From Opitutus sp. GAS368 (lineage in GTDB: Bacteria; Verrucomicrobiota; Verrucomicrobiia; Opitutales; Opitutaceae): 64,000 nucleotides of DNA. Position numbers and translations under genes: made by a program. This document shows positions 27,362-47,389 of this stretch, piece by piece (position 1 is the stretch's first letter; the number at the start of each line of letters is the position of its first letter). Location of the stretch: positions 28,629-92,628 of the forward strand of contig CAMAVZ010000003.1 in the NCBI GenBank assembly GCA_945861645.1. The letters run 5' to 3'. The notes beneath the pieces are model-generated. The model ran no database searches, was not told the origin of the DNA, and saw nothing but the letters and a program-made list of their open reading frames with translations.

Positions 27362-27394
27362 AGCGCTCCGGTGCGTGTTCGCCGGCCGAGTTTT

Positions 27395-30765: not shown

Positions 30766-31305
30766 GTGAACCTACCCCCTAAACCCCCGGCGCCACCTGA
30801 GCAATGGTTCAAGGATGAGGTGCAGCCGCACGGCACCTCCCTGCGGGCATACGTCCGCGGGCGTTTCCCGGGCATACGGGATGTGGACGATGTGGTGCAG
30901 GAATCTTATCTCCGCATTTGGCAGGCACGGGCGCGGCATCCCATTCAGTCGGCGCGGGCCTTTTTATTTCGGATCGCGCGTAATCTCGCCCTCGACACCG
31001 TCCGACACGATCGCCGTTCACCGATAAAGGTCGTAACAGATTTAGCCCACCTGTTCGTCATAGATGATAGACCGGATGCCGCTGCGGCCGCTGCTCGTCA
31101 GCAGGAAATTGCCCTGCTGGTGGCCGCGATTGATGCGCTGCCGGCTCGCTGTCGTGAAATTTTTATTCTCCGTAAACTTCGTGGGGTCTCCCAAAAAGAT
31201 ATCGCTGCCCGGCTCGGGCTTTCCGAGCAAACGGTCCAAGTGCAAGCGGCCCGTGGGTTGCGGCGCGTGGCCGATTCACTCCGCCGGCAACTGAGCCCAC
31301 TATGA
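30766..31305 (+). CDS. ECF (FecI-like) RNA polymerase sigma-70 factor
   Basis: DVDDVVQESYLRIW, AFLFRIARNLALD, LPARCREIFILR...G.SQKDIA.RLGLSEQTV; GTG start. Confidence 0.92.
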   Translation: MNLPPKPPAPPEQWFKDEVQPHGTSLRAYVRGRFPGIRDVDDVVQESYLRIWQARARHPIQSARAFLFRIARNLALDTVRHDRRSPIKVVTDLAHLFVIDDRPDAAAAAARQQEIALLVAAIDALPARCREIFILRKLRGVSQKDIAARLGLSEQTVQVQAARGLRRVADSLRRQLSPL

Positions 31306-32390
31306 GCACTTCTTCGACTTATGGGCAAACTTCCCCGCCGGCGATTGAGGCGGCGGCAGCTGATTGGGTGACGCGCTGTGATGCGGGTCTGACCTCCGCC
31401 GAGCAGCAGATTTTTCAAGATTGGCTGGGCGCAGATGCGCGTCATGCGGATGCCTTTGATCGGCTAACCGAGGCTTGGTCTGTATTTGATCGAGTCCAAG
31501 GCAGCGGGGCAATCAGCGCGGTCCTAGCTGGATTGGCGGTGCGGGCTAGCCAACGGCGCCGGCGTCAGCTGCAAGGAGCGGCCGCGGCTGGGATTATTTT
31601 AGTCAGCGGATTATTTTTCCTGCGCTCTCGTCTTGGGGAAGCTGAGCCAATGAGCCGCCCGGCAGCGAAGGCCCCGATTCAAGAAATCTCGATCGTGGCT
31701 AATAATGCTATTCGTCAGTTGCCAGATGGATCCATTGTAGAGCTGAAAGTGGGGGCAGAAATTTCGGTGCATTATGAGGCGGCAGCGCGTCGCGTAACGC
31801 TCATTAATGGCGAGGCCTATTTTCGCGTAATGAAAGACACGGCTCGCCCATTTTATGTGGAAGCTAACGGCATTGCGGTCCGCGCCGTCGGGACGGCTTT
31901 CTCGGTGCAGCTGCAGCCGTCGGCCGTAGAGATTTTTGTGAAAGAAGGTGCGGTTGATGTCGGGCGCACCGCGGTCGGACGAGCGCCCGCGGGCGGCGAT
32001 AACCGCGTGGTGCGGGTCGTTGCCGGGAAGCGATTTGTCGCTTTGACTAAATTAAGGTTACCCAAATCGATTAAAGGAACGGCCCCCGTTCGCCTGGAAT
32101 CCTTTGCCGAGCCGCAGTTGGTATCTGCAGCGGAGATGGCTCACCAGCTAGCTTGGCGTGATACTCGGCAGGATTTCAACGGCACGACATTGAGCGAAGC
32201 GGTGGCGTTATTAAACCGACATAATGTAACGCAAATATCGATTGAAGATCCGGTGGTGGGCGCCTGGCGCGTCAGCGGGAGTTTTCGCTCGGATAATCCT
32301 GAGGGGTTTGCCCGAATCGTCGGGGAGAGTTTTGACCTGCAAACTGATAAGCAAGGCGAGCACTTGCTTCTATTACGGCGTACGCCCTGA
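31302..32390 (+). CDS. FecR-family anti-sigma/transmembrane sensor
   Basis: EAAAADW...FQDWL.AD.RH N-domain, TM helix, LPDGS.VEL, GEAYF.V.KD..RPF.V, AVGTAF, VSGSF; ATGA overlap with the sigma gene. Confidence 0.92.
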   Translation: MSTSSTYGQTSPPAIEAAAADWVTRCDAGLTSAEQQIFQDWLGADARHADAFDRLTEAWSVFDRVQGSGAISAVLAGLAVRASQRRRRQLQGAAAAGIILVSGLFFLRSRLGEAEPMSRPAAKAPIQEISIVANNAIRQLPDGSIVELKVGAEISVHYEAAARRVTLINGEAYFRVMKDTARPFYVEANGIAVRAVGTAFSVQLQPSAVEIFVKEGAVDVGRTAVGRAPAGGDNRVVRVVAGKRFVALTKLRLPKSIKGTAPVRLESFAEPQLVSAAEMAHQLAWRDTRQDFNGTTLSEAVALLNRHNVTQISIEDPVVGAWRVSGSFRSDNPEGFARIVGESFDLQTDKQGEHLLLLRRTP

Positions 32391-32647
32391 ACTTGAGCAT
32401 CCAAGGGCGGCAAAAATAATTGTAACAGATTTTGCCGGCTGGGGCGTGGTGTAGGAAACCCCTGCGGTCCTCCCTTGGAGTATTTTTACAGCTGAATGCT
32501 TACCCCTGTTATTTTTAAAAAAATATTTGCGAACGATTAGGCAAGGGTATGTTTGTTGCCTTTACGCAACAACTAAGGTTAAAATCTTAGTTAACCTTCA
32601 CTCGACTCGGTCGTCCACATTCTGTGGGGGGCCAATCACAACACACC

Positions 32648-35600
32648 ATGACCCAAGTAATCTCGTTTCCCCGTCTACGAAATCATTACGCGCTAGCAGC
32701 GCTGTGCGCTCTGGCGTTAACACTAGTATCTCATGCAGCTGAGGTTAAGCATTTTAGCATCTCTGCTGCTTCCGCGACCGCCGCGATTAAAGATTTTTCC
32801 AGCCAATCAGGGGGCGAGGTCTTGGTGCCCACGGACGCGGTGGCCGGCATCAGTACCCATGCGGTGGAAGGGGACATGACGCCGCGACAAGCGTTGGAAC
32901 AGATGGTGGCGGGCACGGGGTTGGTTGTCATTCAGGATGAAAAAACCGGAGCCCTTGGTCTGCGCCTTAATCCTGACCGCGCAAAAAACGTCGAGAGCCG
33001 TCAGGTCATGGTGCCGACGGCCAAGGTCACAAAAAGTGAAACGGGCGCCCTTAAGCTTGAGACTTATTCGGTCCTCGGTTCCCGCATTCGGCAAACCGAG
33101 ACCGCTGGCCCTTCCCCCGTTAGTTCATATGATAAAGAATATATTCGGGCTACTGGCTCGATGACGTTGTCAGATTTTCTTAATCAAATCCCGCAAACCT
33201 ATGCGGGTATTGCCTCCGGTCGCGGGAGCGCGCCGAACGAATTGAATCCTGAATTCGGCCAACGTACTGAGACGAGCAATCCGGCGTTCAATCTGGTGCT
33301 AGGCTCATCCGCCGCTCCTCCGGGGCAGACGGGCGTTTCGGGAGTCAGCTTGCGCGGCCTTGGATCTGGCTCGACGCTTGTATTAGTCGATGGCCGGCGG
33401 GCAGCGCAATCGGGTAACGGTAATCGCTCGACGGACACGCGGCAGGGTTTCGTTGATTTGAATACCATTCCGTTAGGCATGGTTGATCGCATTGAGGTCA
33501 TCACTGATGGGGCCTCGGCGATTTATGGTGCCGATGCGGTGGCGGGGGTTATCAACATCATCCTCAAAAAGAATTTCACCGGCACCGAATTATCAGGCGG
33601 CTATAAAGTCTCCCAGCATGGTGGCGGCGCGGAGCGGAATGTTTCCGTCATTAGTGGATTTTCTTATGGAAAATTGAGCGGCTCGGTAGCGATCGAGTAT
33701 TATGACCGAGAAGACCTCAAAGCTGCTCAGCGTTCTTTCTCTAAAAACCAAAATCACACTGGCATTCAGGCTGGCACGCTGACGGCAACCGGCTTGCCTA
33801 AATACGGCGTCGATTGGCGGCTTAATTGGGGCTTCCCAGCTGTAATCCAAGCTTCCGGCGGTACGGTCTCGGGAAATTTTGATGCCCTGCCCGGCGTGCG
33901 CGTTGTGATGGTTCCCGTCGGGGCTACGAGCACCCCAACATTGGCGCAATTTCAGACGGTGCTGACGCCGGCCCCTGGAGCCACGTTGGTGAATGCCTCG
34001 CAGCAGCGCCGAGCCAACACGGCCGAATATCTCGCCTTGATTCCTGAATCAAAGCGAAAGGGCTTGAGCGGTAATTTCAATTATCGCTTTAACGATCATC
34101 TGGATGTTTTCACGAGTCTCCGCACCAGCGAGACGCGCAGTTTTTACACCGCGCAGCCCGGGGCGAATTCGATTACCGGTGGTTTCGGTGCTGCCGTAAC
34201 TTTGCCGGCAGCTTATAATCCATTTAATCAAAATGTGACCATCGGCATGATTCTGCCTGAATGGGGTGCGCAATCCCAGCGCGTGCGGACTTTAGATGAT
34301 GCAATTACGGCTGGCTTGAGGGGTAAGTTTGGCCAGACGTGGGAATGGGAACTCGGGACCAATTGGGAAGAGCAAAAAGTTCGGCAGATCTCGCGTAATT
34401 TTAATCCGGCCCCGTTCGCCGCGATGTTAATCGCCGCCGATCCGGCCCAGCGTTTTAATCCCTTTATCGATTCCAGTGCCCCCGGGGCGCCTTCCCAAGC
34501 GGCCTTGCTCGAGACACTCGCGCTTTATCCGTCGCTGGCCTCAGTTTCCAAGCAGATGGGATTAGATTTTTCCGCCAACGGTAATCTGCTCGACCTCTGG
34601 GGCGGCTCGATGAAAATGGCTGTCGGTGGCTCCAATTTGAAGGGCGAGATGCAGAGCACCGCGGTCAATTATTCTTCCGTGCTGATTCCCGTCGCGACGA
34701 TGACGACTGTCACCGGCGAGCAAACCACGAAGGCCATGTTTGCCGAGTTGAGTGTGCCGATCGTGGGCAAGCCCAATGCGCAGCCGCTGCTGCGTCGTTT
34801 AGATTTAAATCTGGCGGAACGTTATGAAGATAACGGCCGCTTCTCGAAAACGGTGCCGAAGTATGGGGTCTCCTGGACTCCCGTGCAGTCGTTGTTAATC
34901 CGTGCAAATTGGAGCGAGGGCTTCCGGGCCCCTGGCATTACGGAATACATGGTCGCGCCATCAATTGTGACCTCAACCCTGCTCGATCCTCGGCGCACGC
35001 CAACATCGACGACAGGTATCGTGGAATCACGGGGCTCTAATTTAAATCCTCGGCCCGAACTTTCGAAAAACACGTTTGCGGGCATCGTCTATGAGCCCTC
35101 TTGGGTCAAGGGGCTCAGTTTACAGGTTAATTATTATGATACCGTGCAGAAAGATGTGCTGCAGTTGATCACCGCCCAGTCGATCATCAACAATGAGTCG
35201 CTCTTCACTGATCGCATCACGCGGGCCGCGGCCACGCCGGCGGATACCGCACTTAATCAGCCCGGACAAATCACGGCGATCAGTCGCATCTTCGTCAATT
35301 TCGGCCAAGTGGTGAATCGGAGTATGGATTTTGTGGCCGACTATCGTCTGCCTGGGGAGCAATTGGGTCGTTGGCGCTTGAATCTTGCGGCCAGTCGTAC
35401 GCTGGAGGCTACGCGTCAACTGGCCCCGGGTCAGCCGGCGGTTATTCTCGAAGACGACACGGCGGCTCCGCCCAAATGGCGCATCAACGCCGCCGTGTTT
35501 TGGAGTAAAGGGGATTGGAATGCCTCCGCCTTTGTTTCCTATCTGGATGGATTCACGGTCAACAGCGCGGGAAGTAACTTGGTGGCCAATAGTACCGCTG

Positions 35601-35833
35601 TAACTTTTTTCCCTACGCCTTCGATTACCAAACTTGATCTGCGGGCCGGCTATGAATTTCGCAAAGGTCTGTGGCGCGGTTATGGTAAGCGTCTACGCGT
35701 CACGTTGGGCGTAAATAACGTGTTCGATCAAGAGCCGCCGTTCTCCGACACCGTCTGGGGTTTCAATGCCGGCTTACATAGTCAGTTTATTCTCGGCCGC
35801 AGTTACGAGTTCGCCTTCATTCTGCCGCTTTAA
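32648..35833 (+). CDS. TonB-dependent transducer/receptor with N-terminal STN signalling domain
   Basis: Signal peptide; STN-like FSISA..A..AI.DFS.QSG...V.G.MTP..AL..M.AGTGL; plug motifs VLGSRI, LRGLGSGSTLVLVDGRR, DLNTIP, RIEV..DGASAIYGADAVAGVINII; barrel PELS and GVNNVFD. Confidence 0.93.
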   Translation: MTQVISFPRLRNHYALAALCALALTLVSHAAEVKHFSISAASATAAIKDFSSQSGGEVLVPTDAVAGISTHAVEGDMTPRQALEQMVAGTGLVVIQDEKTGALGLRLNPDRAKNVESRQVMVPTAKVTKSETGALKLETYSVLGSRIRQTETAGPSPVSSYDKEYIRATGSMTLSDFLNQIPQTYAGIASGRGSAPNELNPEFGQRTETSNPAFNLVLGSSAAPPGQTGVSGVSLRGLGSGSTLVLVDGRRAAQSGNGNRSTDTRQGFVDLNTIPLGMVDRIEVITDGASAIYGADAVAGVINIILKKNFTGTELSGGYKVSQHGGGAERNVSVISGFSYGKLSGSVAIEYYDREDLKAAQRSFSKNQNHTGIQAGTLTATGLPKYGVDWRLNWGFPAVIQASGGTVSGNFDALPGVRVVMVPVGATSTPTLAQFQTVLTPAPGATLVNASQQRRANTAEYLALIPESKRKGLSGNFNYRFNDHLDVFTSLRTSETRSFYTAQPGANSITGGFGAAVTLPAAYNPFNQNVTIGMILPEWGAQSQRVRTLDDAITAGLRGKFGQTWEWELGTNWEEQKVRQISRNFNPAPFAAMLIAADPAQRFNPFIDSSAPGAPSQAALLETLALYPSLASVSKQMGLDFSANGNLLDLWGGSMKMAVGGSNLKGEMQSTAVNYSSVLIPVATMTTVTGEQTTKAMFAELSVPIVGKPNAQPLLRRLDLNLAERYEDNGRFSKTVPKYGVSWTPVQSLLIRANWSEGFRAPGITEYMVAPSIVTSTLLDPRRTPTSTTGIVESRGSNLNPRPELSKNTFAGIVYEPSWVKGLSLQVNYYDTVQKDVLQLITAQSIINNESLFTDRITRAAATPADTALNQPGQITAISRIFVNFGQVVNRSMDFVADYRLPGEQLGRWRLNLAASRTLEATRQLAPGQPAVILEDDTAAPPKWRINAAVFWSKGDWNASAFVSYLDGFTVNSAGSNLVANSTAVTFFPTPSITKLDLRAGYEFRKGLWRGYGKRLRVTLGVNNVFDQEPPFSDTVWGFNAGLHSQFILGRSYEFAFILPL

Positions 35834-35904: not shown

Positions 35905-38364
35905 ATGAAAAATTTTCTCTGGTCTGTTGCGCTTAGCATTTTTTGTTTAACGGTGATGCCGGCAGGCGCGCAGCCGGCCATCGTGCCGACTTCTACGCCG
36001 AGCGTTCATCATATTGGACCGAAGGTGGGCGAGCTCGCCCCTGATTTTACCGTCGTGGGCCCCGATGGCCAAGCGATCAAACTGGCTGATTTTCGCGGCC
36101 GGACCGTCTTAATCGATATTTGGGCCACCTGGTGCGGGCCGTGCGTGGCTTCCATGCCCCATAACAGCGAACTAGCCGAGCAGCATGCTAAAGACGGTCT
36201 CGTGATCCTGGCGGTCTGCGCCGATGACTCGCGCGCCAATTATGATGGCTGGGTGAAGCGCAACGCCGCTAAATATAAATTTCTCACCGCGCATGATCCG
36301 GCCGGCAAGGACGGTTGGGATAAATCTGTTTTTAATACTCAGTATGGTGTCAGTGGCTTCCCCACGCTTTTCCTGATCGACAAAGACGGGAAGGTGGTCG
36401 GCTCCACCTCCGGCGGTGGCCCGGGCGAAAACCCGCACGTCACGCGCCTGCTCGCCAAGGGTGGCGTGCCGGTCGATACCTCGCATTTACCACCGGAGGA
36501 AAAACGTGAGCGTCAGTCCATTCCCATGATAGGCAAGACGGCGGCAACGCTGATTGGGGCTATTCCTGCCAGTGGAAAATCTGCCGCTGCGCGCCCGCCA
36601 ACCATTCGGTTAGGCTCACTTAAATTTGATGACCAGGTGGCCGATTTCGCCGCTATCGGCGTGGACGGCAAGGAAGTGAAGCTCTCGTCCTTCAAGGGCA
36701 AGCCGGTGCTTATTTCCTTCTGGACCGGAGCGCGTTCGCCCAACGAAGATTTTGCTAAGCTTGCGGCCAATTATAAAGATCAGGGTTTAGCGGTATGGGC
36801 CATCAACGTTGCCACGGATCGCGCTGAATTCGACGCCTGGGCAAAAGCGAATGCGGCTGGCCTGGGTTATACCGTCGCTTGGGATCCAGCAGGGAAGGCC
36901 GTCATGGAGTCCCTTTCCTATATGAAATTTGGCATCGGCATGTATCCCGCTTTCATGGTGGTGAATGCCGGCGGCTATTTTCGCGGTGGCCTGATTGGCA
37001 TGGGCCCAAAGATCGCTGGTTGGATGCGCGCAAGCTTGCAGGTCGCTGATCTTAAGCTCACCGCCGAAGATAAGGCGGCGGCGGATAAAGTTATGGCCGA
37101 AATTTTTGCGGCTCGCGATCAACCGGCCGCGGTTGCCGCCGGCGGGGTGATGGCTGCCGCTACGATCATACCCATGCCTAATAATCCGGCCGCGGCGCCG
37201 AAGGCCGCGTTGCTCGCCGTCGGCGCAATCGCCCCCGATTTTCTGATGAAGGATGTCGCGGCCAAGGATGTCCGTCTTTCCGATTTTAAAGGCAAGGTAG
37301 TGATCCTCGATTTTTGGGCCACTTGGTGTGGACCGTGCATTAGCTCATTTCCGCATACTCAGGAAATCGCCGCGAAATATAAAGACCAGGATGTCATTGT
37401 GCTGGGCGCTGGAACGAGCGACTCGATTGCGAAATTCCAGGAATGGATTCCTAAGAATCAGGCAAAATATCCTGACATTCGCTTCGCGTACGATCTGCAC
37501 GAACGCGAATCGCTCAATTTTGAAGAACGCGCTTCCGCAAAGCTCTATCATGTGGTGGGCATTCCGACGCAGTTTGTGATCGGCCGCGATGGTAAGATCA
37601 CCGGCGTGGTAGTGGGTAATGGCGGAGCGGGGGATGCTCGGACCGAATTTGCGCTGGCCGCCGCGGGGGTGAAAGTGAGTGACGCGATTCTGGCGCAGGG
37701 CAAGGAGCAGGTGGGTAAGCAGGAACAAGCCCGCGCAGCGAGCACGGCGGCGGCAATCAAGAAACCCAAGGCTCCCTTCTACGAAAGTTACGGCAAACTC
37801 AAAGCGGGCGAATTGGTGCCCGACTTCACGGTGCTTACCCCTGAAGGCAAAGAGGCCAAATTTTCTGACTACGCCAAGGGCAAGACGGTCATTCTTGATT
37901 TTTGGGCCACCTGGTGCGGGCCGTGCCAAAAGGCCATGCCGCACTACGAAGAGATCCACCGCAAGTATGGCTCTAAGGGCGTAGTTATTTTCGGGGTCTG
38001 CGGTTTCGACACCCGCGCGAACTACGACAAGTGGCTAATCGAAAATAAAAATAAATATACTTTCGCTACAGTCTTTGATCCGGTCGGTAAACCACCCTCA
38101 GGGGACAAAGAAGCGATGCGTAAGACGATCATGATGCAGCTGACTCGCGGAGCGGTCACGCCGCTGCCGACGACGCTCGTCATCAATTCCGCGGGCAAGC
38201 TGGTCGGGTCCTATGTCGGCTACAGCGAAGCCACGCACGACGGCTTGGCTAATTTACTCATGATCGCTGGCGTCGAGCTAGCGAGAGAAGACCAGCCCAA
38301 AGTATTTTTCCCGTCGGGCTATACCGCCAAACCGGCGATCACGCCGGCCGCGGTGGCCAAGTAA
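35905..38364 (+). CDS. Exported multi-domain TlpA/redoxin protein (4 thioredoxin-fold domains, 3 with WCGPC)
   Basis: Signal peptide; four (A/V)PDF...G(K/R)..lxxW units. WATWCGPC at ~36121, ~37315 and ~37902; domain 2 has FWTGARSP instead. Confidence 0.88.
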   Translation: MKNFLWSVALSIFCLTVMPAGAQPAIVPTSTPSVHHIGPKVGELAPDFTVVGPDGQAIKLADFRGRTVLIDIWATWCGPCVASMPHNSELAEQHAKDGLVILAVCADDSRANYDGWVKRNAAKYKFLTAHDPAGKDGWDKSVFNTQYGVSGFPTLFLIDKDGKVVGSTSGGGPGENPHVTRLLAKGGVPVDTSHLPPEEKRERQSIPMIGKTAATLIGAIPASGKSAAARPPTIRLGSLKFDDQVADFAAIGVDGKEVKLSSFKGKPVLISFWTGARSPNEDFAKLAANYKDQGLAVWAINVATDRAEFDAWAKANAAGLGYTVAWDPAGKAVMESLSYMKFGIGMYPAFMVVNAGGYFRGGLIGMGPKIAGWMRASLQVADLKLTAEDKAAADKVMAEIFAARDQPAAVAAGGVMAAATIIPMPNNPAAAPKAALLAVGAIAPDFLMKDVAAKDVRLSDFKGKVVILDFWATWCGPCISSFPHTQEIAAKYKDQDVIVLGAGTSDSIAKFQEWIPKNQAKYPDIRFAYDLHERESLNFEERASAKLYHVVGIPTQFVIGRDGKITGVVVGNGGAGDARTEFALAAAGVKVSDAILAQGKEQVGKQEQARAASTAAAIKKPKAPFYESYGKLKAGELVPDFTVLTPEGKEAKFSDYAKGKTVILDFWATWCGPCQKAMPHYEEIHRKYGSKGVVIFGVCGFDTRANYDKWLIENKNKYTFATVFDPVGKPPSGDKEAMRKTIMMQLTRGAVTPLPTTLVINSAGKLVGSYVGYSEATHDGLANLLMIAGVELAREDQPKVFFPSGYTAKPAITPAAVAK

Positions 38365-38397
38365 ATTTTTGCATACCCAGCCGTTTTTCCCCCGATC

Positions 38398-40224
38398 ATG
38401 AAATTAATTCATTCACTCGTATTTGGTGTTTTCAGCTGCGTTGCCACTCTGGCTTGGGCCCAGATGCAAACGGCAAAGTCAGTTAACCAACCAATCGCTA
38501 CGCTCGCCGCTGGCGCGGTCGCGCCAGATTTCGCGATGCATGACATTCACGACCAGGAGGTCCGCCTTTCGTCCTTCAAGGGCAAAGTCGTCATTCTCGA
38601 TTTCTGGGCGACGTGGTGCGGACCATGCATCGCCTCGATGCCGCACACCGATGAGATCGCCGCGAAATACAAGGATCAGGAGGTCGTCGTCGTGGCCTCC
38701 GGCACGAGCGACACCATCGCCATGTTCAAGCAATGGATTCCGGCGAACCAGTCGAAATTTCCAAACCTGCAATTCTTTTTTGACCTCAACGAGCGCGGCG
38801 CAGCCACCTTCGAGGAGCGGGCTTCGAGCAAGCTTTACGGGGTCGTTGGCATTCCCTCGCAGTTTGTCGTTGGTCGGGATGGTGTGATCACGGCGACGAT
38901 TGTCGGCAACGGCGGTAAAGAGGACGCCCGCACAGAGGCTGCGCTAGCGAGGGCGGGGGTGAAAGTGGATGCCGCGCGCGTTGCCGCGGGAGAGAGGCAG
39001 CTTAAGGCTGCTGCAGAGGATGCGGCCGACCGTCTGGCCGCGATCGAGGAGGAGAAAAAAAATCCCAAGCCAAAATTCCGTGAAGGCTTTGCTCAGCTGC
39101 AGCGAGGTTTGCCAGTGCCAGATTTTACCGCGCAGGCTGTTGATGGCTCTGCGGTCAAATTTTCTGAGCTCACTCAGGGCAAGACGGTGGTGTTGATGGT
39201 CTGCTCGGCGCGTGGCGCTCGGCCTGACGATATGGTGGCTTTTCAAGATGCTTGGGCCCGCCGCTATGCCGATCAGGGCGTCCTGTTTGTCGAGCTCGCC
39301 GCTTATGGCTCACGCGCTGACTTTGATAAGTATCATGCACCTGCGGCCGCCAAGCTGGCCTATCCGGTGCTGTTCGACCCGGCCGGGGCGGCGCCGAAGC
39401 CGGCCAAAGAGTCCATGGACGAAATGACAGCCGAGGATAAAAAAGCTTTCCGGGAGGCCAATCGCGCGCACTACAGCAAGGTCATCCCCATGGCGTTCTC
39501 TGGCGGCGCCATGGCGCCGGTCCCGAACAATATTGTCATCGACGCCCAAGGCAAATTCCTCGGTTTCTATGTGGGCAGTGGCCCGCAGAGCGCCGAATCA
39601 CTCGGCAATTTGCTCCTCCGCGCGGGGGTGAAGCTAAAGCCGGAAGATAGGCCAAAGAAGATCTTCTCCGCGGAGGAGACAAAGGAGAAGCCGCCGGAGG
39701 CCAAGGTGCCGATGCTGAAAATTGGTGACGCGGCCCCTGATTTTATCGCCACCGACGCCACCGGCAAAGCCGTGAAGATTTCTGATTATCGCGGCAAGGT
39801 CGTCATTCTTGATTTTTGGGCTACCTGGTGCGGACCCTGTATCGCTTCGATGCCGCATACTCAGGAAGTGGCGGCTCATTACAAAAATCAAGGAGTCGTG
39901 GTGCTGGCTTCGTGCACCTCCGATGATCGCAAGAAATTCGATACTTGGGTGAAGCGGAATCAGGAACAGTATCCCGATATTAATTTTTCGCATGATCCGC
40001 AGGAGCGCGGGCCTAATCGGGCCTCGCATAAACTCTACGGGGTCGGCGGCATCCCGCAGCAGTTCATCATCGATCGTGACGGCAAAGTCGCTGCGCTCGT
40101 CACCGGCTACCTCAAGGGCGAGTCCATTCTCGATGCCGCGCTGGCGAAGGCTGGAATCAAGGTTGATCCCGCTCTCATCGCCAAAGGCGCCGAGGATCTA
40201 AAAAAGCGCGAGTCCATGCGCTGA
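38398..40224 (+). CDS. Exported multi-domain TlpA/redoxin protein (3 thioredoxin-fold domains, 2 with WCGPC)
   Basis: Signal peptide; WATWCGPC at ~38605 and ~39817; middle domain has VCSARGARP. Confidence 0.88.
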   Translation: MKLIHSLVFGVFSCVATLAWAQMQTAKSVNQPIATLAAGAVAPDFAMHDIHDQEVRLSSFKGKVVILDFWATWCGPCIASMPHTDEIAAKYKDQEVVVVASGTSDTIAMFKQWIPANQSKFPNLQFFFDLNERGAATFEERASSKLYGVVGIPSQFVVGRDGVITATIVGNGGKEDARTEAALARAGVKVDAARVAAGERQLKAAAEDAADRLAAIEEEKKNPKPKFREGFAQLQRGLPVPDFTAQAVDGSAVKFSELTQGKTVVLMVCSARGARPDDMVAFQDAWARRYADQGVLFVELAAYGSRADFDKYHAPAAAKLAYPVLFDPAGAAPKPAKESMDEMTAEDKKAFREANRAHYSKVIPMAFSGGAMAPVPNNIVIDAQGKFLGFYVGSGPQSAESLGNLLLRAGVKLKPEDRPKKIFSAEETKEKPPEAKVPMLKIGDAAPDFIATDATGKAVKISDYRGKVVILDFWATWCGPCIASMPHTQEVAAHYKNQGVVVLASCTSDDRKKFDTWVKRNQEQYPDINFSHDPQERGPNRASHKLYGVGGIPQQFIIDRDGKVAALVTGYLKGESILDAALAKAGIKVDPALIAKGAEDLKKRESMR

Positions 40225-40483
40225 ATGGGCCGGTTAATTTTAAACGTTCCTCATCACCGATCAGCCGTGCCGACCACTGCTTGGACGCGGCTGAATTGCC
40301 TGGTTTCTCGGCCAGGCCGGGCCCACGGTGAAGCATCAGGTCAGCGCCGGTTGGCGAAAATTTGGGCTATCTTCTCGGATGCGGCTGATCGCGGCCTTGC
40401 GCGAGCCAGCGTAAGCTGGGTTTGCTGGTTGCATCTGTTTCCTGCCTCAATTTGCGTAACAATTCCTTTGGTTGATATATTCT

Positions 40484-43327
40484 ATGAAAATTAAATTATC
40501 GCTCCTCATTGCTTTTCAATTGGGGCTATCGGTGCTGGTCGCAGCCGCCTTGGCGCGACCTTTTGCGCAAGCGACGAGCGATCTGCCGGTTGATCCGGCG
40601 GCGCATTTTGGCACGCTCCCGAATGGGGTGCGGTACGTCATCTACCCCAACAAGGAACCGCGGGGCCGTGCCTCGCTGCGCTTACTCGTCGAGGCCGGCT
40701 CACTGATGGAGAACGAAGATCAACGCGGCGTCGCACATTTTCTCGAGCACATGGCCTTCAATGGTAGCAAGCACTATGCGCCGGGCACGCTCGTGGAGTT
40801 TTTCCAGCGCATGGGTATGAGCTTGGGGGGCGACACGAATGCGTCCACTGGGCTTGATCGCACGCAATATTTGCTGGAGCTGCCGCACACGGATGGCGCG
40901 ACCTTATCGGAGGGGTTGCGGGTGTTGACCGATTACGCGAGCGGCCTGTTGCTCCTCGATGCAGAAATTAATAAAGAGCGGGGCATTATCATGAGCGAGA
41001 AGCGCACCCGCGACAATGTGGGCTACCGCACCTTCATCGCGCAGTTCGAATTTATGCTGGGCGACACGCGCCTGCCCAAGCGGCTCCCCATCGGCCTGCC
41101 TGAGGTTATTGAACAGGCGCCGCGGGCGCGTTTCACCGAGTTTTGGGACACGTGGTATCGCCCAGAGAAAATCGGGATCGTGGCAGTTGGTGATTTTGAC
41201 CCAGTGGTCGTCGAGCAACTGATTATTGCCGCGTTCACGCCTCTTGTGGCTCGTGCCCCCGCGGCCCCTGCGCCGACACTGGGTGTAGTGCCGCAATTCG
41301 ACGGCGTTCGGGCCCATTTTCATGCGGAACCAGAAGCGTCCTCGACTGGAGTGAAGATGACCAACTTGACGCCATTTGTCGATGAACCCGACACCGCCGC
41401 GAATCGAGTTAAGGAACTCCCGCGTCAGATTGCGCTGGCGATCCTCAACCGCCGGTTCAGCGAACTCGTTAAGAAGGAGGGCGCTCCCTTCAGTGCGGCC
41501 CGGGCCAGCGTCTCTAAGGCGTATCGTTTCATACGCGAAGCGAGCATCGAACTCACCTGCAAACCCGAGCAGTGGCCTGCGGCCCTGGCCGTCGGCGAGC
41601 AAGAATTGCGCCGCGCGCTCGAGCACGGCTTCCAGCCCAGCGAGCTGAAGGAGATCGTCGCCACGTTTACCAACGGCCTTGATCAAGCCGTCAAGACCGC
41701 GGCCACGCGCCAATCTCATGCCCTGGCTGACGAAATTCTCGGCGGCCTCTTCGATCAGGAAGTCTTTACCCATCCCGTCGCTGAGCGCGCCCTTTATCAG
41801 CCGGCCCTCGACCAAGTCTCCTTGGCCGATTGCCAAGCCGCGCTCCGTCGCGCTTTCGCGGCGCCCGGTCTCTTCGTGATGGTGACGGGCAATGTCCTCA
41901 TTCCCGGTGAGGCCAATGCGACGATTGCCGTGGCCTTTGAAAAATCCCGCGCTACCCCCGTTGCGGCACCGACCGCGCAGGCCGAGTCCGTTTGGGCTTA
42001 CGCCCAGTGGGGCGCTCCGGGAAAAGTGGTGCAGCGCACGCGGGTCGCTGATCTCGACGTGGAGCTGGTGAGTTTTGCCAACGGCGTAAAATTAAACCTC
42101 AAGAAAACTGACTTCGAGGCCGGCCGCATCCGCACGGGGGTGCGCGTGGGCAGCGGCACCATCACTGAACCGGCCGGTCAGCGCGGTCTAGCGGCGCTCG
42201 CCGGCGGCACGTTTGGCGCGGGCGGTCTGAGCCAGCATAGCGCGGATGAACTGCGCCGGCTGTTCGCCGGTAAAAATGTCAGTGTGCAGTTCCAGCCGGG
42301 CAGCGATGCCTTTAACTTCACCGGCGGCACCACCTCTGGCGACCTTAGCTTGCAGCTGCAGCTCCTGGCCGCCCTGCTCACGGACGCCGGCTGGCGCCCG
42401 GAAGCGCTGCGGCAGGCGCAGAAAAGCATGGAGCAAATGTATCTCGGATTTGAGCACACGGCCAATGGCCCGATGGCCACCGAGGTGGCCAATTTGCTCG
42501 CCAATGGCGACCCGCGCTTCGGCCTGCCGGCCCAGGAAGTGATGATGTCCCGCAATCTCGTCGAGGCCAAGGCCTGGCTCGCGTCGCAGCTGGCGCATGG
42601 TGCACTCGAGGTCTCGCTCGTGGGCGACCTTGAGATCGAGGCCGCCATTGCCGCCGTGGCGCAAACGCTCGGCGCGCTCCCACCCCGCGAGCCCAAGCCC
42701 GCGCTCGACGCGTTGAAAAAAATCTCCTTCCCCGCGACGCCCTTCACTAAGAGCTACACCATCGCGTCCGAAATCCCCAAGGGTAATGTGGCCATCTATT
42801 GGCCGACGACCGATGGCTTCGACGTCAAGCGCGCCCGCCGGCTTAATCTGCTGGCTAGCGTGCTCAACGACCGCTTGCGCGTGAAAGTGCGCGAGGAAAT
42901 CGGCGGCACCTACACCCCGAATGCCGGCAGCAACGCCAGCGACACCTTCCCGAGCTACGGTTACATCCAGGCCGGCTGCGTGGTAGATCCGGCATTGGCG
43001 GATAAAATTACGGCAGTGATTATTGCTCTCGGGGATGATCTTGCGCAGCGCGGGGTGACACCTGAAGAGCTCAATCGGGCGCGTCAGCCCGCGCTCACAG
43101 CGGCTAAAGAGTCATCGCGGACCAATAGTTATTGGGGCGGCACGGTGTTGGCTCGCGCGCAAGAAAAGCCTGAGGCCTTGGATTGGGCCCGCACGCGTTT
43201 GCCCGATCTAGAAGCCATTACGCCGGCAGAATTAAGCATTCTCGCCAAAACTTATCTTAGCGCTGACCGTGCCTCGCGGGTAAAAATATTACCAGCTGTT
43301 GGGGTAAAAACTCCCGCCCGTCCGTAA
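40484..43327 (+). CDS. Exported M16 (insulinase/pitrilysin; PqqL/FusC-like) zinc protease
   Basis: GTLPNGVRY, AHFLEHMAFNG (HxxEH), NAST, ERGII.SE, WYRP, second-half FANG..L and VREE.G.TY; signal peptide. Confidence 0.93.
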   Translation: MKIKLSLLIAFQLGLSVLVAAALARPFAQATSDLPVDPAAHFGTLPNGVRYVIYPNKEPRGRASLRLLVEAGSLMENEDQRGVAHFLEHMAFNGSKHYAPGTLVEFFQRMGMSLGGDTNASTGLDRTQYLLELPHTDGATLSEGLRVLTDYASGLLLLDAEINKERGIIMSEKRTRDNVGYRTFIAQFEFMLGDTRLPKRLPIGLPEVIEQAPRARFTEFWDTWYRPEKIGIVAVGDFDPVVVEQLIIAAFTPLVARAPAAPAPTLGVVPQFDGVRAHFHAEPEASSTGVKMTNLTPFVDEPDTAANRVKELPRQIALAILNRRFSELVKKEGAPFSAARASVSKAYRFIREASIELTCKPEQWPAALAVGEQELRRALEHGFQPSELKEIVATFTNGLDQAVKTAATRQSHALADEILGGLFDQEVFTHPVAERALYQPALDQVSLADCQAALRRAFAAPGLFVMVTGNVLIPGEANATIAVAFEKSRATPVAAPTAQAESVWAYAQWGAPGKVVQRTRVADLDVELVSFANGVKLNLKKTDFEAGRIRTGVRVGSGTITEPAGQRGLAALAGGTFGAGGLSQHSADELRRLFAGKNVSVQFQPGSDAFNFTGGTTSGDLSLQLQLLAALLTDAGWRPEALRQAQKSMEQMYLGFEHTANGPMATEVANLLANGDPRFGLPAQEVMMSRNLVEAKAWLASQLAHGALEVSLVGDLEIEAAIAAVAQTLGALPPREPKPALDALKKISFPATPFTKSYTIASEIPKGNVAIYWPTTDGFDVKRARRLNLLASVLNDRLRVKVREEIGGTYTPNAGSNASDTFPSYGYIQAGCVVDPALADKITAVIIALGDDLAQRGVTPEELNRARQPALTAAKESSRTNSYWGGTVLARAQEKPEALDWARTRLPDLEAITPAELSILAKTYLSADRASRVKILPAVGVKTPARP

Positions 43328-44525: not shown

Positions 44526-45608
44526 ATGGCCAACCCCCTTGCTATTCGTCCCACCGGTGCGCTCGATTTTCTGTCCCTGGGCGCCCTCGTGCACCGCCTA
44601 GATCCGGGCATCATGCCCTTTCGCAAGGCGCAGCACTGCGATATTCATGTCAGCGGGGGGGAATTTAATGTAGCCGCCAATCTCTCCGATTGTTTTCGCC
44701 TCAAGACGGGCGTCGCCTCGGCCATGGTTGATTATCCGGTGGGTGATTTGATTGCGGAGCGTGTGCGCGCGATGGGGGTAACCCCTTTTTATAAAAAATT
44801 TAAACACGACGGCGTCCGCGGACCCAACATGGCCACCGTGTATTCTGATCGTGGGCAAGGCGTGCGCGGCCCAGTGGTTTTTTATAATCGCAGCAACGAA
44901 GCTGCCGCCCAGCTCAAGGCGGGTGATTTCAATTGGGCAGAAATCTTTGGGGGTGGGGTGCGCTGGTTTCACAGCGGGGGCATTTTTGCGGCGCTCTCGG
45001 ACACCACGGGCGAGTTGATCGTCGAGGCGATGCAAGCCGCCAAGGCCGCGGGCGCGGTGACCTCCTTTGATTTAAATTACCGCCAGAAATTGTGGGATAT
45101 CTGGGGTGGCCAGACCAAGGCGCTCAATGTGCTGGGCCGGATCGTCGAACACGTCGATGTCCTCGTGGGCAATGAAGAAGATCTACAGAAGGGCCTCGGC
45201 ATCGAGGGCCAAGATGTGGAGAGCAAGGGGAAGCTCGACCCTTCCGCTTTTTATGCGGTCATCGATAAAGCCGTGAAGAAGTTTCCGAAGGTTAAAGCCG
45301 TCGCTACCACATTGCGCGAAGTGCATTCTACGAATCGCCATACGTGGGGCGCGGTCGCTTGGATCAAGGGTCAAACCTATCAATCCCCGATGTGCGAGCT
45401 TGATGTCGTTGACCGAGTTGGCGGGGGCGACGGTTATGCGGCCGGCTTTATTTATGGATTATTGACCGGCGCCTCCGAACAAGAGTCCGTTAATCTTGGC
45501 TGGGCACATGGAGCGCTGCTCACTACGTTCCCCGGGGATACCAGCATGGCGACCGTGGAGCAGGTGCGCGCTTTTGCCCAAGGTGGCTCCGCTCGCATTC
45601 AGCGCTAA
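44526..45608 (+). CDS. kdgK: PfkB-family sugar kinase, 2-keto-3-deoxygluconate kinase-like (paralogue A)
   Basis: GGEFNVA, WFHSGGI, SFDLNYR, GNEED, DRVGGGD, PGDTS; hexuronate context. Confidence 0.8.
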   Translation: MANPLAIRPTGALDFLSLGALVHRLDPGIMPFRKAQHCDIHVSGGEFNVAANLSDCFRLKTGVASAMVDYPVGDLIAERVRAMGVTPFYKKFKHDGVRGPNMATVYSDRGQGVRGPVVFYNRSNEAAAQLKAGDFNWAEIFGGGVRWFHSGGIFAALSDTTGELIVEAMQAAKAAGAVTSFDLNYRQKLWDIWGGQTKALNVLGRIVEHVDVLVGNEEDLQKGLGIEGQDVESKGKLDPSAFYAVIDKAVKKFPKVKAVATTLREVHSTNRHTWGAVAWIKGQTYQSPMCELDVVDRVGGGDGYAAGFIYGLLTGASEQESVNLGWAHGALLTTFPGDTSMATVEQVRAFAQGGSARIQR

Positions 45609-45717
45609 ATGGTGGGGTCGGGGAGCGGACGGGGGTTCGCCCTGGCGCTGGGCTCGCCTGGGTTAAGCGAGAATTTCGGCTTCCGCTGTTGCGGGTAGCG
45701 CCTTAGTGTGGACGACT

Positions 45718-46260
45718 ATGAGTAACACGGTTCGACCAGCTTTTATTTTATCCCGCGCCGGGTGGCGTGAGACCACCATCTTGTTGGCCGTTGCGGGGCT
45801 CATCCCGTTTTTGGTTCACCTGCTCCCGTGGTCAGGGCATCGACCACTCGGGGTTTATCTGCTGCCGGTATTTTGGACAACTTTTGTGGCCGTATATTTT
45901 CGGGGCCCGTTCATCGGCTTGCTCGTCGGGTTAGTTACTCCCGTGATTAACCTGCTGGTGACCGGTTTGCCGGTCTCGACGAGTCTCATGGCCCTGAGTC
46001 TAGAAATCGCCTTTTTTGTCGTGGTGGCGGCGCAGTGGCCGCGATTCCGCTGGGCCGCGCCGCTCGCGTGGGTAGCCGCGAAAGGCCTGGCGGTTAGCGT
46101 GCAATATTTCATCCCGGCTTTTATGGAGACGGAATATCCTTGGCAGCATCTCGCTCGTTCGACGCAGAATGCCGGCGCGGGTCTAGCGGTGCTCGCCGCG
46201 ATTAATATCCTGCTCGTTATTTTTTATCCGCCGGCGGATGGCTGGGAAAAAGAAGTCTGA
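45718..46260 (+). CDS. Hydrophobic membrane protein, ECF S-component-like
   Basis: PFLVHL, G..LLP, GLL.GL.TP.IN.LVTG.P pattern; ~5-6 TM. Confidence 0.55.
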   Translation: MSNTVRPAFILSRAGWRETTILLAVAGLIPFLVHLLPWSGHRPLGVYLLPVFWTTFVAVYFRGPFIGLLVGLVTPVINLLVTGLPVSTSLMALSLEIAFFVVVAAQWPRFRWAAPLAWVAAKGLAVSVQYFIPAFMETEYPWQHLARSTQNAGAGLAVLAAINILLVIFYPPADGWEKEV

Positions 46261-46294
46261 GCCCGCGCGGGCTCAGGCTGTCAGCAGGTTAATT

Positions 46295-47389
46295 TTACCG
46301 CACTACGCGGGCGTCGCCGCCCTGCATGAGTTTCTCCACTTCCTTCTGGGTCACCATCGAAGTGTCCCCCGGCGTCGTCGAGGCCAAAGCGCCATGCGCT
46401 GCGCCATAATCAACGGCTAGTTGAGGATCATTCTTAGCGAGAAAACCAAACTGCAGTCCGGAGGCAAAGGAGTCGCCCCCGCCGACGCGGTCCAGAATTT
46501 CGAGTCCAGGATAAGCGCGGCTGTCATAGAATTTGCCGTCGTGATAAAGGATCGCGCCCCAATCATTTTTGGTCGCAGTGATCACGTGGCGTAAGGTGGT
46601 GGCCGCCACTTTGAAATTAGGAAATTCTGCCACGGCGGTTTTAATCATCGTCTTGAAGGCATCCGTCTCGAGGTGCGCCAGCGTGTCGGCTCCTTTTACC
46701 GCGAAGCCAAGTGAGGCGGTAAAATCTTCTTCGTTGCCGATCATGACATCAACAGAGCGAGCGATCTCGCGATTGACCTCCTGCGCTTTCTTGAGGCCGC
46801 CAATCGATTTCCAGAGGGAAGGGCGGTAATTCAGATCATAGCTGACGATCGTGCCGTATTTATTCGCGGCCTTAACCGCCTCGACCGTGAGGGCGGCGGT
46901 TGACGGAGAGAGGGCCGCAAAAATCCCCCCCGTATGAAACCAACGCACGCCTTGTTGGCCAAAAATGTCATCCCAGTCGAAGTCGCCCGGTTTAAGTTGT
47001 GAGGCGGCGGTGTTGCCGCGATCGGGTACGCCAACCGCACCGCGCACGCCGAAGCCCCGCTCGGTAAAATTAAGGCCGTTGCGCACGATGCGGCCGATGC
47101 CGTCATCCTCGCGCCACTGGATAAAATCGGTGGCCACACCTCCTTGCATAATAAAATCTTCGACGAGATGGCCGACTTCATTGTCGACGAAGGCAGTGCA
47201 GACCGCGGTTTTTAGATTAAAGCATTTCCGGAGGCCGCGGGAGGTATTGTATTCGCCGCCACCCTCCCAGGCGGTGAAAGCGCGGGCGGTACGGACGCGG
47301 CCCTCGCCAGGATCGAGGCGTAGCATGACTTCACCGAGTGAAAGCTGATCCCAGCGGCAAGAACTAGCGGGGCGAATTTTTAGTGACAT
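46295..47389 (-). CDS. kdgK: PfkB-family sugar kinase, 2-keto-3-deoxygluconate kinase-like (paralogue B)
   Basis: LGEVMLRLDP, GGGEYN, WFHTGGI, SYDLNYR, GNEED, DRVGGGDSF, TPGDTS; same strand and downstream of uxuA and eda. Confidence 0.85.
   Translation of the reverse strand: MSLKIRPASSCRWDQLSLGEVMLRLDPGEGRVRTARAFTAWEGGGEYNTSRGLRKCFNLKTAVCTAFVDNEVGHLVEDFIMQGGVATDFIQWREDDGIGRIVRNGLNFTERGFGVRGAVGVPDRGNTAASQLKPGDFDWDDIFGQQGVRWFHTGGIFAALSPSTAALTVEAVKAANKYGTIVSYDLNYRPSLWKSIGGLKKAQEVNREIARSVDVMIGNEEDFTASLGFAVKGADTLAHLETDAFKTMIKTAVAEFPNFKVAATTLRHVITATKNDWGAILYHDGKFYDSRAYPGLEILDRVGGGDSFASGLQFGFLAKNDPQLAVDYGAAHGALASTTPGDTSMVTQKEVEKLMQGGDARVVR

What the first reader, a model, noticed from the sequence alone, without database searches (positions are those of the whole stretch)
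35905..40224. Seven tandem TlpA domains across two genes, built by duplication
Seen: protein 1 is D1(WCGPC)-D2(no CxxC)-D3(WCGPC)-D4(WCGPC); protein 2 is D5(WCGPC)-D6(no CxxC)-D7(WCGPC). D3 and D5 are very similar (GTSD.IA.F..WIP.NQ.K.P...DL.ER....FEERAS.KLY.VVGIP.QFV.GRDG.IT...VGNGG..DARTE.ALA.AGVKV). The D3-D4 junction (KPKAPFYESYGKLKAGELVPDF) matches D5-D6 (NPKPKFREGFAQLQRGLPVPDF), and both D4 and D6 end in NLL..AGV.L..ED.PK. Most domains end with an L..(A/G)G(V/I).(V/L) helix not typical of TlpA. Established: TlpA proteins usually have one redox domain, whereas multi-Trx chains recall eukaryotic PDI. Inference: a two-domain cassette was duplicated and the array works as a multivalent reductase or isomerase.
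Basis: partly seen in the sequence, partly recalled or inferred. Interest (0 to 1): 0.75.

Follow-up and report, generated by a model that had tools for sequence, protein, structure and literature searches.

The report
Split seven-domain periplasmic thioredoxin-fold reductase chain
Two neighbouring genes of an Opitutaceae bacterium encode a chain of seven thioredoxin-like domains, a split and enlarged form of an unstudied five-domain protein family that travels with an outer-membrane importer and probably reduces disulfide bonds in what that importer brings in.

Summary
Window 35905..38364 (819 aa) and 38398..40224 (608 aa) encode 4 + 3 TlpA/ResA-type domains. CGPC is present in D1, D3, D4, D5 and D7 and absent in D2 and D6.

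The arrangement is not private to this genome. In Opitutaceae the usual form is a ~1000-aa five-domain protein, I-II-III-IV-V (108 of 176 retrieved cluster representatives). The window carries I-II-III-IV' | III-IV-V, so an extra III-IV' unit lies between II and III. Seven clusters hold the same seven domains in one 1378-1425-aa chain.

The two window genes share a reading frame. They are separated by one TAA and 33 nt. Relative to the fused form, 41 extra codons carry the stop, the spacer and a new signal peptide.

The chain co-occurs strictly with an orthologous TonB-dependent transducer. DsbD usually lies nearby (10 of 20 loci). Here a PqqL/FusC-like M16 protease follows.

My best reading is a DsbD-fed, multi-site periplasmic disulfide reductase for imported cargo. 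The function is inferred, not shown. I found no paper describing it.

The parts
28384..30600 (-). DsbD-type membrane thiol-disulfide electron transporter (DsbD_N, DsbD_TM, C-terminal thioredoxin-like domain with WCATC), divergent from the sigma gene
   Evidence: Pfam PF11412, PF02683 and PF13899. NCBIfam DsbD subfamily scores 114.7 bits, below its cut-off of 330. A homologue lies near the chain in 10 of 20 Opitutaceae loci.
30766..31305 (+). ECF-type sigma factor
   Evidence: Pfam Sigma70_r2 and Sigma70_r4_2. Present in 7 of 20 loci.
31302..32390 (+). FecR-type anti-sigma / signal transducer
   Evidence: Pfam FecR and DUF4880. Present in 7 of 20 loci.
32624..35833 (+). TonB-dependent transducer, 1069 aa (STN, plug, barrel), directly upstream of p1
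   Evidence: Pfam PF07660, PF07715 and PF00593. Orthologues at 46-65% identity occur in 18 of 120 other family genomes, including all 14 genomes that carry a full III-IV-V trunk.
35905..38364 (+). p1, 819 aa: signal peptide, then domains I(CGPC)-II(no CxxC)-III(CGPC)-IV'(CGPC)
   Evidence: AF2 mean pLDDT 80.0, pTM 0.35, with four thioredoxin-like folds; the linkers at 200-232 and 404-434 have pLDDT below 50.
35992..36513 (+). D1, class I, CGPC at residues 77-80
36592..37113 (+). D2, class II, no CxxC
37183..37725 (+). D3, class III, CGPC at residues 475-478; the extra copy
37759..38331 (+). D4, class IV' (a class IV relative that keeps CGPC, residues 671-674); the extra domain
38362..38397 (+). 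In-frame TAA plus 33-nt spacer between p1 and p2
   Evidence: With the p2 signal peptide, this region makes up the 41 codons that are absent from the fused 1398-aa orthologue of G024.
38398..40224 (+). p2, 608 aa: own signal peptide, then domains III(CGPC)-IV(no CxxC)-V(CGPC)
   Evidence: AF2 mean pLDDT 90.7, pTM 0.77.
38476..39018 (+). D5, class III, CGPC at residues 74-77
39058..39681 (+). D6, class IV, no CxxC, with a helical insert
39688..40206 (+). D7, class V, CGPC at residues 478-481
40472..43327 (+). M16 zinc peptidase, 951 aa, PqqL/FusC-like over its full length
   Evidence: Pfam M16 and M16_C. PDB matches: 9ldy E 7e-70, PqqL 6ofs E 1e-54, 6b03/6b05/6brs E about 1e-32. Linked to the chain in only 3 of 20 loci.

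Best explanation
What is shown: p1 and p2 are secreted chains of TlpA/ResA-type thioredoxin-fold domains. Together they form a split seven-domain version (I-II-III-IV' | III-IV-V) of a five-domain periplasmic protein family (I-II-III-IV-V) that is widespread in Opitutaceae. Catalytic CGPC domains alternate with domains that have lost the motif. The gene sits directly behind a TonB-dependent transducer gene and next to DsbD.

What is inferred: the chain is kept reduced by DsbD. It acts as a multi-site disulfide reductase on cargo that the co-inherited transporter brings into the periplasm, and the CxxC-less domains help to hold the substrate. In this genome the next gene is a PqqL/FusC-like M16 protease, so the cargo is plausibly a disulfide-bonded polypeptide that is reduced and then cut.

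The split into two genes looks like a real, conserved fission or fusion polymorphism of the linker between IV' and III. It does not look like a broken gene.
For: Anatomy: the calls cited under the observation check establish the domains and motifs.

Fold: p2 models at pLDDT 90.7. Foldseek matches each domain to ResA, DsbE-like, Etrx and TlpA structures (TM normalised to the target 0.59-0.85, normalised to the query at most 0.21).

Active site: D7 aligns to ResA, a DsbE-like protein and Etrx2 with the CxxC and the G-x-P loop in register. It shares WCGPC-x-x-S-(M/F)-P with Etrx2 and the Chlorobium DsbE-like protein. That CGPC is the classical thioredoxin motif is recalled knowledge.

Family: 108 of 176 retrieved cluster representatives are I-II-III-IV-V; 7 are single seven-domain chains; 5 are p1-like; 16 are p2-like.

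Reality of the split: p1-like proteins (P0139 and P0140 at 95%, P0141 and P0143 at 84%) and p2-like proteins (P0001 at 94%, P0006 at 84%, P0015 at 78%) come from other assemblies and end and start at the same places.

Coupling to the transporter: a full-length III-IV-V match occurs in 14 of 120 other family genomes, and all 14 have the TBDT orthologue. Of the 18 genomes with the TBDT orthologue, 17 have chain-type genes; G022 does not. The TBDT lies in 13 of 20 fetched loci by phmmer and 14 by clustering. Among 80 loci of TlpA-like genes from other taxa it was found in 2.

Electron supply: DsbD lies in 10 of 20 loci.

Protease: M16 matches as listed under parts. Protease-associated import systems are described in PMC6793856 (abstract and outline read).
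Against: - No experiment or expression data were examined, and no substrate is known.
- M16 is linked in only 3 of 20 loci (the window, G043 of the same genus, and G069), so proteolysis of the cargo cannot be the general rule.
- The TBDT matches solved receptors only in the plug region (CirA, FepA, BtuB). It shows no detectable likeness to FusA or YddB.
- ECF-sigma/FecR/STN transducers are best known for iron-chelate uptake (recalled), which fits a metal reading as well.
- A CysK-like PLP enzyme lies in 8 of 20 loci and EamA-type transporters in 3 of 20. These hint at small-molecule thiol chemistry rather than protein cargo.
- DsbD adjacency is not proof of electron transfer.
- Related genomes are not independent, so the co-occurrence counts overstate the support.
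Confidence: 0.45

Rival explanations
1. General periplasmic repair or antioxidant electron supply. The chain passes DsbD electrons to envelope repair enzymes (methionine sulfoxide reductases, peroxidases) or to oxidised envelope proteins, as the pneumococcal Etrx proteins do. On this reading the transporter link is regulatory or incidental.
For: Among solved structures, Etrx2 (2yp6, 4hqz) is one of the closest sequence matches (E 1e-20) and shares the WCGPC-x-x-S-M-P signature. DsbD is adjacent. The Etrx role is taken from the abstract of PMC3914529 in the listing.
Against: No Msr or peroxidase gene appears among the conserved neighbours in 20 loci. The strict co-occurrence and adjacency with one TBDT orthologue group is hard to explain by a housekeeping role. 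The system was not found in about 100 of 120 sampled family genomes, so it is accessory.
Confidence: 0.2
2. Metal-centred role. The transducer imports an iron or copper chelate or a metalloprotein. The thioredoxin chain reduces the metal, the carrier or metallochaperone thiols, in the way TlpA serves ScoI and CoxB.
For: The ECF sigma, FecR and STN-bearing TBDT architecture. The best, though sub-threshold, NCBIfam matches of the TBDT are haem/haemoglobin/transferrin receptor families. TlpA structures, including the TlpA-ScoI complex 4txo, are among the matches.
Against: The NCBIfam TlpA equivalog model scores 172.6 against a cut-off of 230. No Sco, PcuC, Cox or siderophore gene appears among the conserved neighbours. 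Five catalytic and two non-catalytic domains are hard to rationalise for a small chelate.
Confidence: 0.12
3. PDI- or DsbC-like isomerase or folding catalyst for the cell's own exported, disulfide-rich proteins.
For: The alternation of catalytic and non-catalytic thioredoxin folds recalls PDI a-b-b'-a'. The PDI architecture is taken from the abstract of PMC4030966 (listings).
Against: The NCBIfam PDI family model scores 76.3 against a cut-off of 344. The motif is CGPC, not CGHC. There is no dimerisation domain as in DsbC (recalled). The co-inheritance with a transporter is left unexplained.
Confidence: 0.1
4. The two-gene state is an artefact or a recent nonsense mutation of a single seven-domain gene.
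For: Both genes are in the same frame and only one TAA separates them. A fused 1398-aa orthologue exists.
Against: Relative to the fused form there are 41 extra codons, not a point change. They encode a typical signal peptide (Lys, a hydrophobic core, A-W-A then Q). Proteins with the same ends occur in other assemblies at 78-95% identity. Other lineages split the chain at a different linker (IV'-III-IV-V, 3 clusters; I-II-III, 2 clusters).
Confidence: 0.03

Closest known systems
Single-domain extracytoplasmic thiol-disulfide reductases: ResA, TlpA, CcmG/DsbE, Etrx1/2
   Same: Same fold and motif positions (Foldseek TM normalised to the target 0.59-0.85; phmmer E down to 1e-23). An export signal is present. 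A DsbD/CcdA-type partner is encoded nearby.
   Different: Five to seven domains are concatenated, and two or more of them have lost CxxC. The active site is CGPC with Ser, not Glu, three residues after the second Cys; the ResA chain in the alignment reads C-E-K-E there. A family-specific terminal motif occurs in 1 of 84 single-domain proteins from other taxa. The chain is linked to a TonB-dependent transducer, not to cytochrome c or Cu-A assembly genes.
Eukaryotic PDI family, especially ERdj5 (a multi-thioredoxin-domain ER reductase that prepares misfolded proteins for degradation)
   Same: A chain of catalytic and non-catalytic thioredoxin folds. The proposed logic is reduction before proteolysis. 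The ERdj5 role is taken from the abstract of PMC10591012 in the listing.
   Different: No homology beyond the shared fold (PDI model 76.3 bits against a cut-off of 344). The domains are of the TlpA/ResA type and arose by internal duplication within the family. There is no J domain.
Protease-associated import systems (Fus of Pectobacterium; YddB-PqqL of E. coli)
   Same: A TonB-dependent receptor gene is clustered with a roughly 930-950-aa periplasmic M16 protease. The window's M16 aligns over its full length with PqqL (E 1e-54) and with the 6b03/6b05/6brs chains (E about 1e-32). That those three entries are FusC is recalled. The concept comes from PMC6793856 (abstract).
   Different: That paper does not contain the words thioredoxin, disulfide, DsbD or Verrucomicrobia. 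The TBDT shows no detectable FusA/YddB likeness. M16 is present in only 3 of 20 loci, whereas the thioredoxin chain and the TBDT are the constant pair.

Membership tests
TlpA/ResA/DsbE-like redoxins (Pfam PF08534 Redoxin, PF00578 AhpC-TSA) | Thioredoxin fold of the TlpA/ResA type, above Pfam gathering scores | tested here: met
   Redoxin scores 244.9 bits for p1 and 159.8 for p2 against a cut-off of 26.6. Foldseek gives TM normalised to the target of 0.75-0.85 to ResA, DsbE-like and Etrx structures.
TlpA/ResA/DsbE-like redoxins | CxxC active site at the N-terminus of helix 1 | tested here: met
   CGPC in D1, D3, D4, D5 and D7. Not met in D2 and D6, which are degenerate copies.
TlpA/ResA/DsbE-like redoxins | cis-Pro loop opposite the active site | tested here: met
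   D7 G-I-P aligns with G-P-L-P, G-M-P and S-I-P of ResA, the DsbE-like protein and Etrx2. Equivalent F-P, I-P, L-P, Y-P and V-P are visible in the seven-domain alignment. The cis geometry itself was not checked.
TlpA/ResA/DsbE-like redoxins | Export to the periplasm | tested here: inconclusive
   Both proteins start with M-K, a hydrophobic stretch and A-x-A then Q. These residues model at pLDDT below 50. No signal-peptide predictor was available.
TlpA (NCBIfam NF047696, equivalog) | Score above the curated cut-off | tested here: not met
   172.6 bits (p1) and 115.1 bits (p2) against a cut-off of 230, even when summed over several domains.
ResA subfamily (NCBIfam NF002854) | Score above the curated cut-off | tested here: inconclusive
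   263.7 and 189.5 bits against a cut-off of 170, but only as the sum of 4 and 2 stretches. No single domain was scored alone.
Peroxiredoxin (the name given by one source to many relatives) | Match to curated peroxiredoxin models | tested here: not met
   Thiol peroxidase NF006960 scores 68.1 against 140, PrxU 42.2 against 270, PrxQ 29.5 against 260. The motif is the thioredoxin-type WCGPC.
Protein disulfide isomerase (TIGR01130) | Family model above cut-off; CGHC sites | tested here: not met
   76.3 bits against 344.25. The sites are CGPC.
Protease-associated import system (Fus / YddB-PqqL) | PqqL/FusC-type M16 protease | tested here: met
   Full-length phmmer matches to 6ofs (E 1e-54) and 6b03 (E 3e-33).
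Protease-associated import system (Fus / YddB-PqqL) | FusA/YddB-type TonB-dependent receptor | tested here: not met
   Only plug-region matches to CirA, FepA, BtuB and PirA. No FusA or YddB appears among the 17 matches at E up to 1e-5. This is sequence evidence only; no fold comparison was made.
Protease-associated import system (Fus / YddB-PqqL) | Conserved linkage of receptor and protease | tested here: not met
   M16 lies in 3 of 20 Opitutaceae loci that hold the chain.

The most novel reading that the evidence does not exclude
Reductive import. The chain works at the periplasmic exit of its TonB-dependent transporter as a DsbD-powered thiol-disulfide unfoldase or ratchet. It reduces disulfide-rich proteins as they enter and so makes them importable and digestible. 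This would be a bacterial counterpart of ERdj5-type reduction before degradation. The number of domains (5, 6, 7, or split) would be retuned quickly by recombination between the repeated class III domains.
Probability: 0.15. Interest if true: 0.8.

Novelty: new variant of a known kind. Interest (0 to 1): 0.5.

Why it matters
Extracytoplasmic TlpA/ResA-type reductases are known as single domains with dedicated partners such as cytochrome c, Cu-A centres and Msr enzymes.

A family of five- to seven-domain chains that alternate active and inactive thioredoxin folds would add a new layout to bacterial envelope redox biology. The chains are inherited together with one TonB-dependent transducer and lie close to DsbD. 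This points to a nutrient-uptake step that needs disulfide reduction in the periplasm.

The family is also a clean natural example of domain-array evolution. It shows internal duplication, loss of catalytic cysteines, gain and loss of a cassette, and fission of a gene that required a new signal peptide in a linker.

The predicted proteins are already in public databases under generic names. What is new is the interpretation and the context, not the sequences.

Tried and rejected
- Complex prediction of p1 425-819 with p2 27-608 gave no verdict (score 0.00). It says nothing either way about binding.
They returned almost only distant single-domain TlpA-like genes; the best metagenome match was 40% identical. 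Adjacency of p1-like and p2-like genes in other assemblies therefore could not be checked. It is inferred only from matching identity levels and identical protein ends.
- Origin of the p2 signal peptide as a copy of the p1 5' end: the local DNA alignment score was 14, reached by 337 of 500 shuffles. No support.
- An odd/even 'didomain' origin was suggested by the midpoint-rooted tree ({II, IV} against {I, III, V}). The outgroup-rooted tree did not uphold it. That tree gives (III, V) and (I, (II, (IV, IV'))) with supports 99*, 90, 94 and 99*.
- Selenocysteine reading of matches flagged '1 TGA': in the one checked (G068, L088 18778-19398, minus strand) the TGA is the ordinary stop after a complete single-domain protein.
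- The ABC pair at 22091..25824 as CydDC or FusD/YddA-like: only generic exporter matches, all below cut-offs.
- Recent gene conversion between D3 and D5: the longest shared DNA segment is 125 nt at 74% identity.
- The search of earlier findings returned nothing.

Full report
**What is there**

Window 35905..38364 and 38398..40224 are two + strand ORFs of 819 aa (from the ATG; the frame is open from GTG 35863) and 608 aa. Pfam finds four AhpC-TSA/Redoxin stretches in the first. In the second it finds three AhpC-TSA stretches and two Redoxin stretches. An HMM made from the seven domains delimits them at p1 30-203, 230-403, 427-607 and 619-809, and at p2 27-207, 221-428 and 431-603.

CGPC occurs at p1 77, 475 and 671 and at p2 74 and 478. 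D2 and D6 have none.

Identities between domains are D3/D5 65%, D3/D7 54%, D5/D7 52%, D1/D4 41%, D4/D6 35% and D2/D6 32%. D3-D4 aligns with D5-D6 at 47% over 396 columns, E 2e-112.

**The two genes are one frame**

Translating 35905-40224 in one frame meets a single TAA (38362-38364). After 33 nt it runs on into the ATG of p2.

A family genome (G024, locus L001) has one ORF of 1398 aa with WCGPC at 80, 479, 674, 866 and 1270, which is the same seven domains. Its global identity to the window's read-through is 65% over 1384 aligned positions. At the D4-D5 linker the window has 41 extra codons. These hold the end of p1, the stop, the spacer and the p2 signal peptide (M-K, a hydrophobic core, A-W-A then Q).

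This is not a point nonsense mutation. Proteins with the same ends exist in other assemblies. The p1-like ones are P0139 and P0140 (95%) and P0141 and P0143 (84%). The p2-like ones are P0001 (94%), P0006 (84%) and P0015 (78%).

I could not tell fission from fusion. The p2 signal-peptide DNA shows no likeness to the p1 5' end.

**The family**

The best relatives of p2 are mostly ~1000-aa proteins that their sources name as Opitutaceae, Lacunisphaera, Oleiharenicola or Cephaloticoccus. Their product names are generic: redoxin domain-containing protein, peroxiredoxin, thiol-disulfide isomerase/thioredoxin.

A tree of 143 domains gives five classes that correspond to the five positions of that protein, I(C)-II(x)-III(C)-IV(x)-V(C). 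With class HMMs the window reads I-II-III-IV' | III-IV-V, where IV' is a class IV relative that keeps CGPC.

I classified the 176 cluster representatives retrieved by the two searches. This sample is biased by my queries.

| Architecture | Clusters (of 176) |
|---|---|
| I-II-III-IV-V | 108 |
| III-IV-V | 16 |
| I-II-IV'-III-IV-V | 11 |
| I-II-III-IV'-III-IV-V (1378-1425 aa) | 7 |
| I-II-III-IV' | 5 |
| I-IV-V | 5 |
| I-II-III-IV'-V | 4 |
| IV'-III-IV-V | 3 |
| Rarer forms | 17 |

In a sample of 120 other genomes of the family, a full III-IV-V match occurs in 14. A D4-type domain above 65% identity occurs in 3: G024, G019 and G076.

Outside the family the layout is rare. Of 80 loci with TlpA-like genes from other taxa, 75 have single-domain genes. 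Three have four domains: two Opitutaceae MAGs and one Planctomycetota MAG.

**How it was built**

Against 18 single-domain outgroups, all chain domains form one clade (99*, with one long-branch outgroup row inside it). The array therefore grew by internal duplication. The rooted order is (III, V) and (I, (II, (IV, IV'))). The tidy odd/even split seen with midpoint rooting did not survive.

The depths differ, however. The inserted IV' domains form their own clade (96*) in a three-way split with the whole CxxC-less class IV (100*) and with the IV' of the I-II-III-IV'-V forms. D3, by contrast, sits inside crown class III next to the first class III domain of another seven-domain protein (98*).

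On a tree of the III-IV-V trunk, the five-, six-, seven-domain and split forms are interleaved. For example, 7-domain P0122 pairs with 5-domain P0007 (98*), and 6-domain P0129 pairs with 7-domain P0124 (93).

I read this as frequent gain and loss of the III-IV' (or IV') unit. Unequal recombination between the two class III repeats is a simple route from seven to five domains. This is inference.

In the window itself the repeats share no long identical DNA; the best segment is 125 nt at 74%.

**Structure**

AF2 with family alignments gives p2 a mean pLDDT of 90.7 and pTM of 0.77. It gives p1 a mean pLDDT of 80.0 and pTM of 0.35. All seven domains model as thioredoxin-like folds.

The I-II and II-III linkers (p1 200-232, 404-434) are of low confidence. 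In both proteins III and IV are joined by one long helix (p1 593-616, p2 192-221), which fits III-IV being a unit.

It is specific to the family: 1 of 84 single-domain proteins from other taxa carry it.

Foldseek finds only single-domain matches (ResA, DsbE-like, Etrx, TlpA). The TM normalised to the query is at most 0.21 among the rows shown. No multi-domain match appeared.

**Context**

The order of genes in the window is:
1. DsbD (28384..30600, minus strand)
2. ECF sigma
3. FecR
4. A 1069-aa TonB-dependent transducer with an STN domain
5. p1
6. p2
7. A 951-aa M16 peptidase

The table shows how often each neighbour appears near the chain in 20 Opitutaceae loci. These are the window plus 19 fetched loci, several of them short contig ends.

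| Neighbour | Loci (of 20) |
|---|---|
| TBDT | 13 by phmmer, 14 by clustering |
| DsbD | 10 |
| CysK-like PLP enzyme | 8 |
| ECF sigma and FecR | 7 |
| LuxR-type regulator | 5 |
| M16 peptidase | 3 |

Across the 120 sampled genomes the TBDT orthologue (46-65% identity) is found in 18. These include all 14 genomes with the full trunk, plus G109, G050 and G118, which have partial or two-domain forms beside it. Only G022 has the TBDT without a chain-type match. The genomes are related to one another, so these counts are descriptive and not a test.

The M16 peptidase aligns over its full length with E. coli PqqL (6ofs, E 1e-54) and with 6b03/6b05/6brs (E about 1e-32).

**Function**

Shown: the fold, the motifs, the neighbours and the co-occurrence.

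Inferred: a periplasmic location, from the signal peptides by inspection. Also inferred: reduction by DsbD, and action as a multi-site disulfide reductase on what the transducer imports. In this genome the PqqL-like protease would then cut a reduced polypeptide.

The CGPC motif with Ser three residues after the second Cys is shared with Etrx2 and a Chlorobium DsbE-like protein. The ResA chain in the same alignment has acidic residues there.

The rivals are envelope repair, metal handling and isomerase activity. They are not excluded, and their weights are given in the Rival explanations section.

**Literature**

Five full-text searches found no paper on a bacterial multi-TlpA chain or on this locus type. 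The paper on protease-associated import systems (PMC6793856; abstract, outline and a term search were read) does not contain the words thioredoxin, disulfide or DsbD. Papers outside the held library were not searched.

**Verdict**

This is a split, enlarged member of an unstudied but locally common family. I class it as a new variant of a known kind, of moderate interest.

Noticed in passing
window 40472..43327: A 951-aa M16 peptidase lies directly downstream. It is full-length similar to PqqL (6ofs) and to the 6b03/6b05/6brs chains. Together with the TonB-dependent transducer this resembles a protease-associated import system, but the protease is linked in only 3 of 20 related loci.
   Followed up: partly
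L002, L003, L005, L006, L092, L094, L095, L099 (for example L005 13875-14810): A CysK/CysM-like PLP enzyme (TIGR01136 scores 337.8 bits against a cut-off of 344) lies between or beside DsbD and the chain in 8 of 20 loci. In the window's own genome the only match is a 38% identical gene on another contig.
   Followed up: partly
window 22091..25824 and 26396..28258: Two adjacent ABC exporter-type half-transporters and two EamA-family transporters lie just beyond DsbD. The NCBIfam matches are generic and below cut-offs. EamA homologues recur in 3 of 20 loci.
   Followed up: partly
L002 (G019) 9228-13028, and L003 (G076): A second type of locus has II-III-IV-V (819 aa) followed by a separate III-IV' gene (411-414 aa) behind its own TBDT. 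G019 also carries a canonical five-domain gene elsewhere on the same contig (L007).
   Followed up: partly
L008 9581-12910: A Planctomycetota MAG encodes a 1109-aa III-IV-V-V-like chain that is 44% identical to p2. This could reflect transfer between PVC phyla or a binning error. Two Poribacteria loci (L029, L034) hold two-domain genes.
   Followed up: no
L005, L006, L007, L091, L094 (for example L005 6102-7283): A ~400-aa protein with a C-terminal LuxR/GerE helix-turn-helix lies next to the chain in 5 of 20 loci. Four of the five (all but L005) show no ECF sigma/FecR pair in the fetched stretch, so it may be an alternative regulator.
   Followed up: no
L088 18778-19398 (minus strand): A single-domain, class I-like secreted redoxin carries the same terminal L..AGLKL motif, so free-standing relatives of the chain domains exist. 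The '1 TGA' flag on this match is its ordinary stop codon.
   Followed up: yes
window 44526..48526: Two PfkB-family kinases and a UxuA mannonate dehydratase lie downstream. This looks like sugar-acid catabolism, apparently unrelated to the redox locus.
   Followed up: no
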